A stretch of DNA of 64,000 nt from a bacterium BMS3Bbin13 (GCA_002897735.1 BDTW01000034.1:37230-101229), one strand, 5' to 3'. Shown: positions 1,476 through 53,103, numbered from the stretch's first letter. Numbers and translations: made by a program. Notes: a model not told the origin generated them from the letters alone.

Positions 1476-1557
1476 GGAAAATTCAATGCGAAGGGGCCTT
1501 GCCATGGGCTTTGGTCTGCGCCGGTTGCAGGGATGTTACAATGCGAGAACTGACCCC
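1476..1557. repeat. 82-bp conserved intergenic element, copy A (76/82 identical to copy B at 5918-5999)
   Basis: Direct comparison of the two copies shows a 33-nt identical block, a 13-nt variable block, then 36 nt with one mismatch. It contains a direct repeat of CAATGCGA spaced 43 nt apart. It lies 45 nt after the glk stop and about 50 nt after the stop of the minus-strand gene ending at 1606. Confidence 0.8.
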
Positions 1558-5917: not shown

Positions 5918-5999
5918 GGAAAATTCAATGCGAAGGGGCCTTGCCATGGGTTTTCGTCTACATCGGTTGCAGGGATGTTACAACGCGAGAACTGACCCC
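5918..5999. repeat. 82-bp conserved intergenic element, copy B
   Basis: See copy A. It lies 31 nt downstream of the stop (6031) of the minus-strand HTH antitoxin gene and directly after the higBA terminator. It is followed by T-runs (ATTTTTTCGACCCCCGTTTTTTCCGTTTTTT). Confidence 0.8.
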
Positions 6000-6667: not shown

Positions 6668-6682
6668 TTGTCTTTCCTGACC

Positions 6683-6823
6683 GTCGCAGTAGGAACACCG
6701 GTTACCCGGTGACCCCTGCACAGATCCCGGCGTGCGATTTGCCCACACCGGGCTCTTCAGTCATACTCACTTGCGTAGAAGTGCAGTGACTCACGCAAGC
6801 CTCCGATTCATACCGCCCTGTGG
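6683..6823. repeat. 141-bp repeat, copy 1 (about 93% identical to copy 2 at 7247-7387)
   Basis: Two copies 564 bp apart, each immediately 5' (on the minus strand) of a cassette-like gene. Each contains three local hairpins: CACCGG-TTAC-CCGGTG, CCCGGCGTGCG..CGCACCGGG and TTGCGT..ACGCAA. Confidence 0.8.
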
Positions 6824-7237: not shown

Positions 7238-7246
7238 ATCAAGTGC

Positions 7247-7387
7247 GTCGCAGTAGGAACACCGGTTACCCGGTGACCCCTGCACAGATCCCGGCGTGCG
7301 GTTTTCCCGCACCGGGCTCTTCAGTCCTACTCACTCGCGCAGAAATGCAGTGACTCACGCAAGCCTCCGATTCATACCGCCCTGTGG
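7247..7387. repeat. 141-bp repeat, copy 2
   Basis: See copy 1. It ends 9 nt before the ATG of the 6881-7237 gene on the minus strand. Confidence 0.8.
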
Positions 7388-20083: not shown

Positions 20084-20281
20084 AAGAGCATCTCCCGCCT
20101 GTGCCGTGGGGGGCCTTCGCCCTTGAACCACTTGGTTCAGGTGGGGACATCGGCCGGCGAATCAGGCTTTCCGCACAGCGGCGGACTTGCACACAACGCC
20201 GGCGACTCCGTCCCCAGGGCGCCACGATAGGGCCAAGGATCTTCCAGGCCCCCGCCTCGAACACCGCAGGAGATGCCAAAC
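20084..20281 (-). ncRNA. ssrS: 6S RNA (SsrS)
   Basis: Immediately downstream of zapA as in other gammaproteobacteria. The minus strand contains CACCUGAACCAAGUGGUUCAAGGGCGAAGG (compare E. coli 6S ACCUUGAACCAAGGGUUCAAGGG). The terminal GGCAUCUCCUGC...GCAGGCGGGAGAUGC forms a closing stem. Ends are approximate (+/-10 nt). Confidence 0.8.
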
Positions 20282-21223: not shown

Positions 21224-21781
21224 ATGAGTGATCCGACGACCCTGCCCGCCTTCCCGGAGGTCCGCGACTACCTGCATGCGGCCGATGCCGAGTCCGGTGC
21301 GGCCGAGGCGCATGGTCTGCTGTGCGGGATGCTGTGCGCGCGAGCCGGGACCGAACCGGAACCGTGGCTCGAGCAGGTCTTGGGCCCCTCGCACGGGCCG
21401 GCCGCCCACCCGGACGTACTCGACCAGGTCTACCGCGGCACCCGCGCCGAGTTCGCCGACGGCGAACTGGGGTTCCAGCCGCTGCTGCCCGACGACGAGG
21501 AACCGCTGCCGGTGCGTATCCATGCCCTGGGTCAGTGGTGCGGGGGGTTCCTCGCGGGCCTGGGCCTGACGGAGACCTCGGATAGCACGGCGCTGGAGGG
21601 CGAGGTGGGCGAATTCGTGCGCGACGTGGCCGAGATCACCCGCATCCGGTTCGAGCCCGCCGCCGGCGAAGAGGATGAATCCGCCTACATGGAAATCGTG
21701 GAATACCTGCGCATGGGCGTGCTGCTGACCTACGAGGCCCTCAACTCACCCCCCGGCGAGCCCGCCGACACAGTCCACTGA
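21224..21781 (+). CDS. ygfB: YgfB/UPF0149 family protein
   Basis: 185 aa, ...AEAHGLLCGMLCA...PWLEQVL...ALGQWCGGFLAGLGL... is characteristic of UPF0149 (YgfB). Confidence 0.85.
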   Translation: MSDPTTLPAFPEVRDYLHAADAESGAAEAHGLLCGMLCARAGTEPEPWLEQVLGPSHGPAAHPDVLDQVYRGTRAEFADGELGFQPLLPDDEEPLPVRIHALGQWCGGFLAGLGLTETSDSTALEGEVGEFVRDVAEITRIRFEPAAGEEDESAYMEIVEYLRMGVLLTYEALNSPPGEPADTVH

Positions 21782-21805: not shown

Positions 21806-22340
21806 CGGCTTCACCACTTGGCGCTCGTAGCCCGGATACAGGCTGAAGACCGAAATCCGGGGATCACGCCCCGGTGGAAAACCGGTCCCGGATTCCGCTT
21901 CGCTCTATCCGGGCTACATCGTAGAAATGACCGCGGAACACACGGGCCGGCTTCACCACCGGCGCTCGTAGCCCGGATACAGGCCGAAGGCCGAAATCCG
22001 GGGATCACGCCCCGGTGGAAAACCGGTCCCGGATTCCGCTTCGCTCTATCCGGGCTACATCGTAGAAATGACCGCGGAACGCACGGGCCGGCTTCACCAC
22101 CGGCGCTCGTAGCCCGGATACAGGCCGAAGGCCGAAATCCGGGGATCACGCCCCGATGGAAAACCGGTCCCGGATTCCGCTTCGCTCTATCCGGGCTACA
22201 TCGTAGAAATGACCACGGAACACACGGGCCGGCTTCACCACCGGCGCTCGTAGCCCGGATACAGGCCGAAGACCGAAATCCGGGGATCACGCCCCGATGG
22301 AAAACCGGTCCCGGATTCCGCTTCGCTCTATCCGGGCTAC
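21806..22340. repeat. tandem array, 3.8 copies of a 141-bp unit (near-perfect copies)
   Basis: Period measured from the CTTCACCAC landmarks at 21809, 21951, 22092 and 22233 = 141-142 bp. Copies differ by only 2-5 substitutions. Each unit contains a perfect 12-bp inverted repeat GTAGCCCGGATA...TATCCGGGCTAC enclosing the nested hairpins CCGGT-GGAAA-ACCGG and GAAATCCGGG..CCCGGATTC. It fills the convergent gap between ygfB and hemE. Confidence 0.9.
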
Positions 22341-22382
22341 GGGGAGCAGTACTTGATTCTGTATCGCTTTTCCGGCGTTCCA

Positions 22383-23447
22383 TCAGGCGTGGTAGCGGGC
22401 GCCGAGTTCGTGCACGGCGTCGACCAGGACCGCGACGCGGTCCGGGTCGGTATCCGCGTGGATTCCATGGCCGAGGTTGAAGACGTGCCCGGAGCCGGCA
22501 CCGAACGCCTCCAGGATCTGCGCCGCGGCGGCACGGATCCGTTCCGGGCCGGCGTAGAGGACCGCGGGGTCGAGATTTCCCTGGAGTGCAATGCGATCCC
22601 CGACCCGCGCGCGCGCGGCGCTCAGATCGACCGTCCAGTCGAGCCCCGCGGCGTCGCAGCCGGTGTCGGCGATCGCCTCCAAGTGCTGGCCGCCGCCCTT
22701 GGTGAAGAGGATCACCGGGACGCGGCGCCCGTCGTGCTCGCGCGGCAGGGACTCGACGATCCGCGCCATGTAGCGTAATGAAAACTCGCGGTACGCGACG
22801 GGGTCGAGCACCCCGCCCCAGGTGTCGAAGATCATGATCGCCTGCGCACCGGCCTCGATCTGCGCATGCAGATAGACGCCGACGCTGCGCGCGACGACCT
22901 CGAGCAGCCGATGCAGCAGTTCGGGGCGGTCGAACAGCAACCGCTTGATCCGGTCGAACTCGCGACTCGATCCCCCCTCGACCATATAGGTCGCAAGCGT
23001 CCAGGGGCTGCCGGCAAACCCGATCAGCGGCAGTGTCCCGCCCAACTCGCCGCGCACCAGGCGCACCGCGTCCAGCACGTAACGCAGATCCGTCCCGGGG
23101 TCGGGCACCCCCAGCGCGCGGATATCACGCTCCGTGCGCACCGGGCGTTCGAAGCGCGGGCCCTCGCCTTCCACGAAGTGCAGACCCAGGCCCATCGCAT
23201 CCGGCACCGTGAGGATATCGGAGAAGAGGATCGCGGCATCCAGCCGGTAGCGGCGCACCGGCTGCATCGTCACCTCGCAGGCCAGTTCCGGCGTCGTACA
23301 CAGCGTCAGGAAATTCCCGGCCCGCTCGCGCACGGTGCGGTATTCCGGCAGGTAGCGACCCGCCTGGCGCATGATCCAGATCGGCGTCGTGTCCACGGGC
23401 TCGCGCAGCAATGCGCGCAGCAGGCGATCGTTGGTCGAACCGTTCAT
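22383..23447 (-). CDS. hemE: uroporphyrinogen decarboxylase
   Basis: ...[16 protein letters not shown]... is the HemE N-terminal signature. About 354 aa from the ATG at 23447 (the track ORF starts 10 codons upstream). Confidence 0.9.
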
Positions 23448-23537
23448 TCCGCATGAGGACCGAGTAGGGGCCGGCAAGGCCCGATGAAAGATGTCGGCAA
23501 GGCCCGCGCTGCCGCGGCGCCGGATCCGGGACGGCGT

Positions 23538-52431: not shown

Positions 52432-53103
52432 ATGGCCCGCGTCACCGTAGAAGACTGCCTCGATAAAACCGACAACCGCTTCCAACTCGTACTGGTCTCC
52501 GCAAAGCGCGCGCGTCAGCTCGCGCGCGGCGCGCCGCCGATGCTGGATTGGGAGAACGACAAGCCGACGGTAATGGCCCTGCGCGAGATCGCGGCCGGCG
52601 CGGTCACGGCCGCCAACGTGGACGAGATCGGCAAGGTGGCCGTCGCATCCCCGGACGATGAACTCGCCGCACTGCTCAGGGAAGCGGGGGGCGACCAACC
52701 CGCGGCACCCGGCGCCGAAGCCGCCGCGACCGAGGCGGGCCCGGTCACCGCCGACGCCGCCGCTCCTGAACCCGCCGCGAAATCCGCTCCGGAACCCGCC
52801 GCGGAACCCGCCGTGGAACCCGCCGTGGAACCCGCCGCGGAACCCGCCGCGGAACCCGCCGTGGAACCCGCCGTGGAACCCGCCGCAGAACCCGCCGCGG
52901 AACCCGCCGCGGAACCCGCCGTGGAACCCGCCGCAGAACCCGCCGCGGAACCCGCTCCGGAACCCGCCGCCGAGGCCGATGCGCCGAAGCAGGCCGCCGC
53001 GCCCGGCGACGAGCCGGCGGACGCCACGGCCGATGCGACCGGATCCTCCGAGCCCGATCAGGGGCCGGAGCAGGCCGGGGAGACGCCTCAGGGCGAGGGT
53101 TGA
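52432..53103 (+). CDS. rpoZ: DNA-directed RNA polymerase subunit omega with about 130-aa repetitive Ala/Glu/Pro-rich C-terminal extension
   Basis: The N-terminal [34 protein letters not shown]... is canonical RpoZ. The C-terminal half is (A/V)EPA tetrapeptide repeats, encoded by about 18 tandem copies of a 12-nt unit GAACCCGCCGCG/GTG (52790-52975). Confidence 0.85.

What the first reader, a model, noticed from the sequence alone, without database searches (positions are those of the whole stretch)
21806..22340. Near-perfect tandem array (3.8 x 141 bp) of a hairpin-rich, GGA-containing unit between ygfB and hemE
Four tandem copies differing by only a few substitutions imply recent expansion or strong homogenisation.
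Each unit has a perfect 12-bp outer inverted repeat (GTAGCCCGGATA/TATCCGGGCTAC) enclosing two nested stem-loops. One stem-loop displays GGA in its loop (CCGGU-GGAAA-ACCGG). There are 4-5 GGA triplets per unit, about 18 across the array.
This is the architecture of CsrB/RsmZ-type sponge RNAs that titrate CsrA/RsmA. Alternatives are a DNA-binding-site array or a satellite-like MITE cluster.
It is not coding: the 47-codon periodicity produces artefactual ORFs on both strands, and it lies in a convergent gap. There are no spacers, so it is not CRISPR.
Basis: seen in the sequence. Interest (0 to 1): 0.65.

Follow-up and report, generated by a model that had tools for sequence, protein, structure and literature searches.

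The report
Tandem cluster of REP palindrome doublets
The repeat array is a locally amplified cluster of a common kind of small, palindromic, mobile 'junk-like' bacterial DNA (REP/REPIN elements), not a CsrB-type regulatory sponge RNA, so it is real but ordinary.

Summary
In detail: window 21806-22340 holds 3.8 copies of a 141-bp unit (97% matches) in the convergent gap between ygfB (UPF0149) and hemE.

Each unit is two GTAG-tagged palindromes (GTAG + CCCGGAT stem + 17- or 13-nt loop + ATCCGGG) in inverted orientation, 25 nt apart, followed by a 50-nt linker whose last 20 nt copy the left flank. This is a REP heterodimer (REPIN) reiterated in tandem with flanking DNA, the organisation described for E. 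coli BIME-2 and Pseudomonas tandem REPIN clusters.

The same half-element is widespread in Proteobacteria, mostly as inverted doublets with 21-28 nt gaps. It directly flanks RAYT (Y1 transposase) genes in six fetched loci and forms independent tandem arrays in other genomes.

At the orthologous site, relatives show an empty gap (YgfB 54-69% identical), one half-element (83%) and one doublet (91%). Assemblies of the window's own species have 4, 5 or 8 doublets.

There is no Rfam CsrB/Rsm match and no promoter. Most GGAs lie in the palindrome stems. The one GGA-loop hairpin is polymorphic and is not conserved in the doublets of other lineages.

Genome-wide copy number, a RAYT in the source genome and transcription could not be tested.

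The parts
21224..21781 (+). ygfB (UPF0149) gene, left neighbour; its stop codon lies 45 nt before the first palindrome
   Evidence: Pfam PF03695, E 5.8e-37; the identical protein is found on 10 contigs from other assemblies
21806..21826 (.). Left-flank segment CGGCTTCACCACTTGGCGCTC. A copy of it (CGGCTTCACCACCGGCGCTC) forms the 3' end of every linker, so this is the flanking DNA carried along in the tandem duplication.
   Evidence: Sequence; the same flank, CGGCTTCACCGCCCAACCCTC|GTAG, precedes the single doublet in L250
21827..21917 (.). Doublet 1. REP-A (+) 21827-21861: GTAG CCCGGAT, 17-nt loop, ATCCGGG. Inner spacer 21862-21886. REP-B (-) 21887-21917: GTAG CCCGGAT AGAGCGAAGCGGA ATCCGGG. The GTAG tags face outward (HH heterodimer).
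   Evidence: ssDNA/RNA folds of the equivalent doublet 2
21918..21967 (.). Linker 1 (50 nt), ATCGTAGAAATGACCGCGGAACACACGGGC + CGGCTTCACCACCGGCGCTC
   Evidence: no significant structure (z about 0, folded for linker 2); a weak terminator-like site on the - strand
21968..22058 (.). Doublet 2 (REP-A 21968-22002 +, spacer 22003-22027, REP-B 22028-22058 -)
   Evidence: ssDNA fold -28 kcal/mol, z -4.96
22059..22108 (.). Linker 2 (50 nt)
22109..22199 (.). Doublet 3 (REP-A 22109-22143 +, spacer 22144-22168 with the CCGATGG variant, REP-B 22169-22199 -)
22200..22249 (.). Linker 3 (50 nt)
22250..22340 (.). Doublet 4 (REP-A 22250-22284 +, spacer 22285-22309, REP-B 22310-22340 -). The right junction CTAC|GGGGAGC is shared with the single copies in L250 and L253.
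22383..23477 (-). hemE (uroporphyrinogen decarboxylase), right neighbour. Its stop codon is 42 nt from the last palindrome. Other assemblies call it as 354 aa, so the true start is probably about 23447.
   Evidence: Pfam PF01208, E 2.7e-142; gene calls in L001, L004 and L005

Best explanation
The array is a tandem cluster of four REP doublets (REPINs), the same organisation as E. coli BIME-2.

Shown:
- Each 141-bp unit is an inverted pair of GTAG-tagged palindromes (a heterodimer with 17- and 13-nt loops, 25-nt spacer, GTAG tags outside) plus a 50-nt linker that includes a copy of the left-flank DNA.
- The half-element belongs to a family that is widespread in Proteobacteria and flanks RAYT (Y1/HUH) transposase genes.
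- The element is absent from the orthologous gap in more distant relatives, is present as one half-element or one doublet in closer ones, and numbers 4, 5 or 8 doublets in assemblies of the window's own species.

Inferred mechanism:
1. A doublet was inserted once between ygfB and hemE in an ancestor, by RAYT-mediated single-strand DNA transposition.
2. The doublet plus adjacent flank was then duplicated.
3. The array has since expanded and contracted by unequal recombination or replication slippage between near-identical units. This also keeps the units homogeneous and makes the locus a VNTR.

Likely consequences, by analogy with enterobacterial REP/BIME and not tested here: read-through transcripts from the two convergent genes end in very stable hairpins that can impede 3' exonucleases and attenuate read-through, and the DNA may bind gyrase or other nucleoid proteins. 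No dedicated RNA gene is needed to explain the array.
For: Anatomy: 8 exact GTAGCCCGGAT in alternating orientation. Each half has a 7-bp stem with a C-GAA-G-capped loop and folds as ssDNA (-11.1 and -7.1 kcal/mol, z -3.8 and -2.4). The whole doublet gives -28 kcal/mol, z -5.0, and the linker is unstructured.

Family: a genome-collection scan for GTAG-CCCGGAT-loop-ATCCGGG hit its 120-locus limit. Among 186 half-elements the modal loop is 13 nt, GNAGCG[A/C]AGCGNA; the window's REP-B loop is AGAGCGAAGCGGA. The dominant arrangement is a +/- pair with a 21-28 nt gap; the window's gap is 25 nt.

RAYT link: homologues 46-51% identical to E. coli RayT (E 1e-40 to 1e-49; all four tested hit Pfam Y1_Tnp at E<=3e-4, two of them above the gathering score) lie 12-97 nt from family REPs in L019, L042, L046, L099, L102 and L152. 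The L152 RAYT-flanking REP is 29/31 identical to the window's REP-B. Nunvar et al. 2010 (PMC2817692) list GTAGCCCGGATGCAATCCGGG as the RAYT-flanking REP of P. mendocina ymp.

Tandem arrays of such doublets elsewhere: L062 151 bp x 6.3, L043 171 x 2.3, L102 124 x 2.3, L080 186 x 1.9; L205 has 2-3 modules 89-91% identical to the window's, with a related linker.

Evolutionary series at the orthologous site and shared junctions.

Copy number 4, 5 and 8 with flanks 99.5-99.98% identical, and unit variants shared between assemblies.

Literature describing this organisation:
- Di Nocera et al. 2013, PMC3733652: HH dimers predominate, spacers are 20-100 bp, heterodimers occur, and clusters are dimers reiterated in tandem with flanking DNA.
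- Ton-Hoang et al. 2012, PMC3333891: BIME-2 occur as tandem copies, well conserved within a locus, with a number that varies between strains.
Against: - In the 64-kb window and about 25 kb of relatives' flanks, the family occurs only at this one site. The 'high-copy, dispersed' property of classical REPs is therefore not shown for this genome.
- No RAYT gene is present in the window, and the rest of the source genome could not be searched.
- A composite six-frame protein query found only one other array.
- The 7-bp stems are perfect, whereas E. coli TnpA-REP needs a stem mismatch for binding. Present-day mobility is therefore unproven.
- The first 30 nt of the linker have no identified origin.
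- Copy numbers come from short-read metagenome assemblies, which can mis-assemble 141-bp tandem repeats.
Confidence: 0.9

Rival explanations
1. CsrB/RsmZ-type sponge RNA: the array is transcribed as a roughly 0.5-kb non-coding RNA whose repeated GGA motifs titrate CsrA/RsmA.
For: GGA is about 2-fold enriched (19 and 16 against 9-10 expected). One small hairpin per unit presents GGA in its loop in single-unit folds. The structure is repetitive and hairpin-rich.
Against: - No Rfam match to CsrB/C, RsmX/Y/Z or any sRNA at E<=10 beyond noise, and none elsewhere in the window at gathering thresholds.
- No sigma-70-like promoter; only weak terminator-like sites in the linkers on the minus strand.
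- On the + strand, two of the five GGAs per unit lie inside the CCCGGAT stems and a third sits beside a stem; GGA appears on both strands because the core is palindromic. Only 1 of 20 is unpaired in gap-wide folds; there are zero AGGA and zero CANGGANG.
- The GGA-loop stem carries a G-to-A mismatch in units 3-4, and the spacer differs in L250 and L131.
- The element is absent from relatives with 54-69% YgfB identity, and copy number varies from 4 to 8 between strains.
- The same palindromes flank transposase genes in other bacteria.
Confidence: 0.03
2. Co-opted functional element: the cluster is maintained by selection as a bidirectional 3'-end stabiliser or attenuator for the convergent ygfB and hemE transcripts, or as a gyrase or nucleoid-protein binding and supercoiling-insulator site, as reported for E. 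coli REP/BIME-2.
For: The array lies in a convergent gap, 42-45 nt from both stop codons. The hairpins are very stable on both strands (RNA -50 to -53 kcal/mol per doublet, z about -4.7). These roles are documented for E. coli REP/BIME (introduction of PMC3333891). Bertels & Rainey suggest specific roles for ordered tandem clusters.
Against: Relatives do without it, with 48-77 bp gaps. Copy number is not fixed within the species. There is no direct evidence of transcription, protein binding or phenotype. This is compatible with the best explanation rather than exclusive of it.
Confidence: 0.25
3. Repeat-containing protein gene: one of the two array-spanning ORFs (220 aa on the + strand, 190 aa on the - strand) is real.
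For: The 141-bp period equals 47 codons, so one frame stays open on each strand.
Against: Neither ORF has a Pfam hit. A composite query of all frames found a single weak hit among 5.8 billion proteins, and that hit lies on another such array. Units differ by 1-nt indels in other assemblies, giving 140-nt units. Both strands being open is a periodicity artefact. The + ORF runs into hemE on the opposite strand.
Confidence: 0.01
4. Assembly artefact: the tandem array or its copy number was produced by mis-assembly of a single doublet.
For: Several contigs break inside or at the array (L002, L003, L006, L007, L251, L252, L256). The 141-bp period is close to common k-mer and read lengths.
Against: At least two full units with linkers are present in six independent assemblies. 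The array is fully bridged to hemE in the window, L001, L004 and L005. Units carry distinguishing SNPs in a consistent order across assemblies.
Confidence: 0.03

Closest known systems
E. coli BIME-2 (tandem REP/iREP clusters; Bachellier/Gilson nomenclature, as summarised by Ton-Hoang et al. 2012, PMC3333891)
   Same: Both have GTAG-tagged imperfect palindromes in alternating orientation. The two partners are of different type (y/z2 there, 17- and 13-nt loops here). A short inner linker and a longer outer linker alternate. Multiple tandem copies are well conserved within a locus, and copy number varies between strains.
   Different: Stem sequence differs: CCCGGAT here, GCCGGAT/GCCTGAT-type in E. 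coli. The unit here is longer (141 bp). The stems here are perfect 7-bp, whereas E. coli has mismatched stems. Gyrase binding has not been tested. The host is an uncultured deep-sea gammaproteobacterium in which the family looks sparse.
Tandem REPIN clusters of Pseudomonas fluorescens SBW25 (Bertels & Rainey 2011, PMC3116915)
   Same: Both are tandem repeats of nearly identical REP doublets that include flanking sequence. The size range is similar: the largest SBW25 cluster has four REPINs over 700 bp, against four doublets over 535 bp here and up to eight in L005.
   Different: The REP sequence class differs. SBW25 has hundreds of dispersed REPINs and identified cognate RAYTs, neither of which is shown for this genome.
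GTAG-tagged REP families with HH heterodimers and long loops (Di Nocera et al. 2013, PMC3733652), and the RAYT-flanking REP GTAGCCCGGATGCAATCCGGG of P. mendocina ymp (Nunvar et al. 2010, PMC2817692)
   Same: GTAG tag, the same 7-bp stem CCCGGAT/ATCCGGG, HH orientation, a 20-100 bp spacer, and clusters made of dimers reiterated with flanking DNA.
   Different: Loops here are 13 and 17 nt with a GCGAAGC or GGCCGAAGGCC core, not the 3-nt loop of P. mendocina. I did not determine which numbered GTAG family of Di Nocera et al. it falls into.
CsrB/RsmZ-family sponge RNAs
   Same: Repetitive, hairpin-rich and GGA-containing.
   Different: No covariance-model match, no promoter, GGAs mostly in stems, not conserved in relatives, and palindromic on both strands.

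Membership tests
REP (repetitive extragenic palindrome), GTAG super-family | 20-40 nt imperfect palindrome with a conserved GTAG tetranucleotide 5' to the foot of the stem | tested here: met
   All 8 half-elements are GTAG + CCCGGAT + 13- or 17-nt loop + ATCCGGG, 31-35 nt long. ssDNA hairpins give -7.1 and -11.1 kcal/mol.
REP (repetitive extragenic palindrome), GTAG super-family | Extragenic location | tested here: met
   The array lies in the convergent gap between ygfB and hemE. The array-spanning ORFs have no family match.
REP (repetitive extragenic palindrome), GTAG super-family | Many dispersed copies in the same genome | tested here: inconclusive
   Only this one site was found in the 64-kb window and about 25 kb of relatives' flanks. 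The family itself is abundant and dispersed in many other genomes.
REP (repetitive extragenic palindrome), GTAG super-family | Association with a RAYT / TnpA-REP (Y1 HUH transposase) gene flanked by the same REPs | tested here: inconclusive
   Met for the family: six RAYT genes have family REPs 12-97 nt away. Not shown for the source genome: there is no RAYT in the window.
REPIN (REP doublet forming a hairpin) | Two REPs in inverted orientation separated by a short spacer, able to fold into one long hairpin | tested here: met
   The doublet is 91 nt with outer arms of 15-16 nt and a 25-nt spacer. The fold gives -28 kcal/mol as DNA and -50 as RNA, z about -5. The same arrangement is dominant across the family.
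REPIN (REP doublet forming a hairpin) | The doublet is the replicative unit, so whole-doublet copies occur at unrelated sites | tested here: met
   Whole doublets 86-91% identical occur in L205, L131 and L229 with no ygfB or hemE nearby. These are in other organisms; copies within the same genome were not shown.
BIME-2 / tandem REPIN cluster | Doublets reiterated head-to-tail with alternating short and long linkers, including flanking DNA. Copies within a locus are near-identical, and the number varies between strains. | tested here: met
   Period 141, 97% matches. The 3' 20 nt of the linker equal the left flank. There are 4, 5 or 8 doublets in assemblies with 99.5-99.98% identical flanks.
BIME-2 / tandem REPIN cluster | Binding or cleavage by DNA gyrase (E. 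coli BIME-2) | not testable with these tools
   Needs biochemistry or ChIP.
CsrB/RsmZ sponge RNA | Match to a family covariance model, or multiple A(N)GGA motifs presented in hairpin loops or single-stranded linkers | tested here: not met
   No Rfam hit at E<=10. Zero AGGA, and only 3 ANGGA on the + strand. Only 1 of 20 GGAs is unpaired in gap-wide folds.
CsrB/RsmZ sponge RNA | Independent transcription unit (own promoter, often GacA/UvrY-dependent, and a terminator) | tested here: not met
   No promoter-like site was found, and only weak 5-bp terminator-like hairpins in the linkers on the minus strand. This is a consensus scan only; there are no expression data.
CsrB/RsmZ sponge RNA | Conservation of the locus among relatives | tested here: not met
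   Gaps of 48-52 bp without the element at 54-69% YgfB identity, one half-element at 83% and one doublet at 91%.
CRISPR array | Direct repeats separated by unique spacers | tested here: not met
   The 'spacers' (inner spacer and linker) are themselves repeated, and the palindromes alternate in orientation.

The most novel reading that the evidence does not exclude
The cluster may be more than parasitic DNA. In a lineage where this REP family seems almost absent elsewhere (one site in at least 64 kb), the doublet may have been amplified and retained because the array acts on the two convergent genes. It could work as a bidirectional 3'-end stabiliser or attenuator or as a supercoiling insulator, or its read-through RNA could titrate an RNA-binding protein, with copy number (4-8) tuning the effect between strains. 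The series empty site, half-element, doublet, array would then document the birth of a regulatory element from a REPIN.
Probability: 0.08. Interest if true: 0.45.

Novelty: new member of a known kind. Interest (0 to 1): 0.15.

Why it matters
Mainly as a correction. A striking near-perfect tandem array that looks like a sponge RNA is a BIME-2-like or tandem-REPIN cluster, so it should be annotated as repeat DNA and not as an sRNA gene or as the spurious ORFs it generates.

It has modest practical value. The locus is a strain-level VNTR marker for an uncultured gammaproteobacterium from deep-sea sulfide deposits, and it is a likely cause of contig breaks in its metagenome assemblies.

The orthologous-site series (empty, half-element, doublet, 4-8 doublets) is a tidy natural example of how REPIN clusters arise by duplication of a doublet with its flank, but it confirms existing models rather than changing them.

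Tried and rejected
1. Rfam at E<=10 over the region and at gathering thresholds over the whole window: nothing relevant.
2. Promoter and terminator scan: no promoter.
3. The genome-collection scan with the half-element pattern was meant to recover other copies from the source genome.
It gave whole-doublet copies in other organisms but no contig of the source species.
5. A composite six-frame 'spurious ORF' query against 5.8 billion proteins, meant to find other copies of the full unit, gave a single hit on what is apparently the L205 contig. This is a weak negative, since even the small ORF called over the array in L001 was not returned.
CsrA absence from 64 kb says nothing about the genome.
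7. A first gapless comparison of units was confounded by 1-nt indels and was redone with MAFFT. The second split still merged units carrying the GTAGCCCGGATGC variant, so I used it only qualitatively.
8. I considered and rejected CRISPR (no unique spacers), a coding repeat protein, and assembly artefact.
9. I looked for the origin of the first 30 nt of the linker. It shows only a loose resemblance to the ygfB-proximal flank (a shared TGACCGC), which is not convincing.

Full report
**1. Observation**

The array is real. TRF finds window 21806-22340 with period 141, 3.8 copies, 97% matches, no indels and score 1005. The repeat finder gives three 239-nt copies at 97-98% identity.

The motif GTAGCCCGGAT occurs exactly 8 times in the 64-kb window, all inside the array in strictly alternating orientation. 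With one mismatch allowed there are 10 matches, against 1.3 expected, and none of 100 shuffles reached 10.

The outer inverted repeat has 15-16 nt arms, 93-94% complementary, 61 nt apart, in each unit.

The flanks are a UPF0149/YgfB gene (21224-21781, +) and hemE (22383-23477, -), which converge on the array.

The 47-codon period keeps one frame open on each strand (21818-22480 + and 21811-22383 -). Neither product has a Pfam match.

**2. Anatomy**

Each unit has four parts:
- REP-A (+): GTAG CCCGGAT ACAGGCCGAAGGCCGAA ATCCGGG.
- A 25-nt inner spacer containing CCGGTGGAAAACCGG.
- REP-B (-): GTAG CCCGGAT AGAGCGAAGCGGA ATCCGGG.
- A 50-nt linker.

As single-stranded DNA, each half forms a 7-bp stem capped by a small C-GAA-G hairpin: -11.1 kcal/mol (z -3.8) for REP-A and -7.1 kcal/mol (z -2.4) for REP-B. 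The whole doublet can also fold into one long hairpin (-28 kcal/mol as DNA, z -5.0; about -50 as RNA on either strand). The linker has no structure beyond chance.

The last 20 nt of every linker (CGGCTTCACCACCGGCGCTC) copy the DNA immediately left of the first palindrome (CGGCTTCACCACTTGGCGCTC, 21806-21826). The repeated unit is therefore doublet plus flank.

**3. The family**

A scan of one genome per species for GTAGCCCGGAT-N8-22-ATCCGGG stopped at its 120-locus limit. Hits came from Bradyrhizobium, Xanthobacteraceae, Rhodanobacteraceae, Lysobacterales, Burkholderiales and many gammaproteobacterial MAGs.

Among the 186 half-elements in those loci:
- The modal loop is 13 nt with the pattern GNAGCG(A/C)AGCGNA, and the window's REP-B fits it.
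- 17-nt loops of the GGCCG.AGGCC type, like REP-A, also occur.
- The dominant arrangement is a +/- pair with a 21-28 nt gap (34 of 48 close pairs are +/-); the window's gap is 25 nt.

A narrower pattern also saturated the metagenome scan.

Similarity of most foreign copies to the window is limited to the 31-37 nt of REP-B, at 92-97%. L205 carries 2-3 tandem whole doublets (89-91%) with a related linker. L131 and L229 carry one whole doublet (86%). None of these has ygfB or hemE nearby.

**4. Link to RAYT transposases**

tblastn with E. coli RayT (b0228, fetched) found homologues in L019, L042, L046, L099 and L102 (46-51% identity, E 1e-40 to 1e-49) and in L152 (47%, E 2e-43). The four I scanned against Pfam (L019, L042, L099, L102) all hit Y1_Tnp at E<=3e-4. 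Two score above the gathering threshold (30.5 and 31.2 bits against 23) and two fall just below it (22.8 and 21.5).

Every one of the six has family palindromes 12-97 nt from the gene, usually on both sides. The L152 RAYT-flanking REP, GTAGCCCGGATAGAGCGCAGCGAAATCCGGG, is 29/31 identical to the window's REP-B.

Nunvar et al. 2010 list GTAGCCCGGATGCAATCCGGG as the REP class flanking the RAYT of Pseudomonas mendocina ymp (PMC2817692).

Neither a RAYT nor CsrA is encoded in the window.

**5. Tandem arrays are a known habit of such doublets**

In the fetched loci, independent arrays occur in:
- Pseudoxanthomonas suwonensis (L062, 151 bp x 6.3, 95%). Its REP-A-like half, GTAGCCCGGATAAGGCCGAAGGCCGCATCCGGGGA, is close to the window's.
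- A Rhodanobacteraceae MAG (L043, 171 bp x 2.3).
- Bradyrhizobium sp. AT1 (L102, 124 bp x 2.3, next to its RAYT).
- A betaproteobacterial MAG (L080, 186 bp x 1.9).

The literature describes this organisation:
- Di Nocera et al. [quoted passage not shown] - Ton-Hoang et al. 2012: E. coli BIME-2 'occur as multiple tandem copies', copies at one locus are well conserved, and their number varies between strains (PMC3333891).

**6. History of this locus**

The identical YgfB protein is encoded on contigs from several assemblies: GCA_002897835.1, ERZ1742235-8 and ERZ909563/6. The ERZ9095xx assemblies are from BioProject PRJDB5792, which a 2024 paper links to deep-sea massive sulfide deposits. Their flanks are 99.5-99.98% identical to the window.

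The number of doublets in these assemblies is:
- 4 in the window and L004.
- 5 in L001.
- 8 in L005.
- At least 4 in L002, where the contig ends.

Diagnostic unit variants recur in the same order in different assemblies (L001_u2 = L005_u3, L001_u3 = L005_u4). The arrays therefore differ by whole-unit gain or loss.

Almost all variation is in loops, spacer and linker. The GTAG tags are invariant. One C-to-T change in a stem, giving a G.T pair, is seen in one unit each of L001 and L005.

Graded YgfB relatives keep the ygfB/hemE convergent synteny. Their gaps read as follows:

| YgfB identity | Locus | Gap | Content |
|---|---|---|---|
| 54% | L254 | 48 bp | no palindrome |
| 69% | L257 | 52 bp | no palindrome |
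| 83% | L253 | 77 bp | one REP-B plus spacer remnant; same right junction CTAC\|GGGGAGC as the window |
| 91% | L250 | 170 bp | exactly one doublet; same left flank and right junction; different inner spacer (no GGA hairpin) |
| 96% | L256 | contig ends | at least one doublet |

The parsimonious reading is a single insertion in an ancestor of the clade with 83% or higher identity, decay to a half-element in one branch, and recent tandem amplification in the window's species. One caveat applies: two other contigs of the 91% relative break inside REP-A, so a collapsed array there cannot be excluded.

**7. Against the sponge-RNA reading**

- Rfam has no CsrB/Rsm-like match at E<=10 in the region. 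The best hits are eukaryotic miRNA models and Pseudomonas P10, far below their thresholds. At gathering thresholds the window holds only a 6S RNA and a group II intron domain.
- There is no sigma-70-like promoter. The only terminator-like sites within the array are weak 5-bp hairpins in the linkers on the minus strand.
- Of the five + strand GGAs per unit, two lie inside the CCCGGAT stems and one sits beside a stem. Because the core is palindromic, the minus strand is similarly 'enriched'.
- In minimum-energy folds of the whole gap, 1 of 20 GGAs is unpaired on either strand. There is no AGGA and no CANGGANG.
- The one loop-GGA hairpin has a stem mismatch in units 3-4, and the spacer that carries it is different in L250, L131 and L229.

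Presence of CsrA in the genome could not be tested. From general knowledge, CsrA is near-universal in Gammaproteobacteria, so its presence would not discriminate.

**8. What remains open**

A profile built from 284 distinct half-elements finds only the eight array copies in the 64-kb window, and only the orthologous-site copies in L250 and L253. A composite six-frame query against the protein database returned one protein, apparently from the L205 contig (same 2138-nt length).

I therefore cannot show that the family is dispersed, or that a RAYT exists, in the source genome. The window does contain a second GTAG-tagged inverted pair of another class at 43576-43663, which suggests REP-type elements are not foreign to this genome.

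Transcription, effects on mRNA 3' ends and protein binding are inferences from E. coli and Pseudomonas work, not results.

**9. Verdict**

This is a BIME-2-like tandem cluster of a GTAG-REP heterodimer (REPIN). It is a new instance of a well-described kind of repeat and a strain-level VNTR. Interest is low (0.15).

Noticed in passing
window 43576-43663: A second GTAG-tagged inverted pair of a different class: GTAG GGCGGGCC-TCG-GGCCCGCC on the + strand and GTAG GGCCGGG-GCG-CCCGGCC on the - strand. The GTAG tags face outward, and the roughly 40-nt spacer contains an 18-nt x 2.3 tandem. It is probably another REP doublet.
   Followed up: partly
window 20088-20275 (-): 6S/SsrS RNA (Rfam RF00013, 71.5 bits against a gathering score of 46.4), downstream of zapB-zapA as in E. 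coli. It overlaps mechanical ORFs listed in that region.
   Followed up: no
window 7247-7321 (-), and 6682-6823 / 7246-7387: Group II intron catalytic-domain hit (RF00029, 45.3 bits) lying inside one copy of a 142-nt direct repeat (95% identity, 564 bp apart). This may be two intron 3' ends or a duplicated intron fragment.
   Followed up: no
window 1476-1557 and 5918-5999: An 82-nt direct repeat, 93% identical, 4.4 kb apart, AT-richer than its surroundings. It may be a repeated regulatory or leader region, or the ends of an element.
   Followed up: no
window 52768-52970: 12-bp tandem repeat GAACCCGCCGCG x 16.9 (88% matches). Whether it is coding was not checked.
   Followed up: no
L131 8640-8800 and L229 6040-6190: A single REP doublet bracketed by a roughly 20-nt direct repeat of flanking DNA (CGAGTCGACCCGATGTCAA / CGAGTCGAACCGATGCCAA). 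This could be a target duplication or the first step of a doublet-plus-flank tandem duplication.
   Followed up: no
L250 6596-6688: In the single doublet of the 91% relative, both halves carry CCTGGAT as the 5' arm against ATCCGGG. This gives a G.T mismatch in each local hairpin but perfect pairing of the outer arms in the long doublet hairpin. It is reminiscent of the stem mismatch that E. coli TnpA-REP requires.
   Followed up: no
L099 2250-3070: The RAYT gene is flanked by a stem variant (GTAGCCCGGACTAAGCGCAGCGAGTCCGGG) and by a 40-nt x 2.9 tandem repeat ending in GTAGGGA.
   Followed up: no
L002, L003, L006, L007, L251, L252, L256 (contig ends): Many metagenome contigs of this organism and its relatives terminate inside or at the edge of the REP array, so the element is a recurrent assembly breakpoint.
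   Followed up: partly
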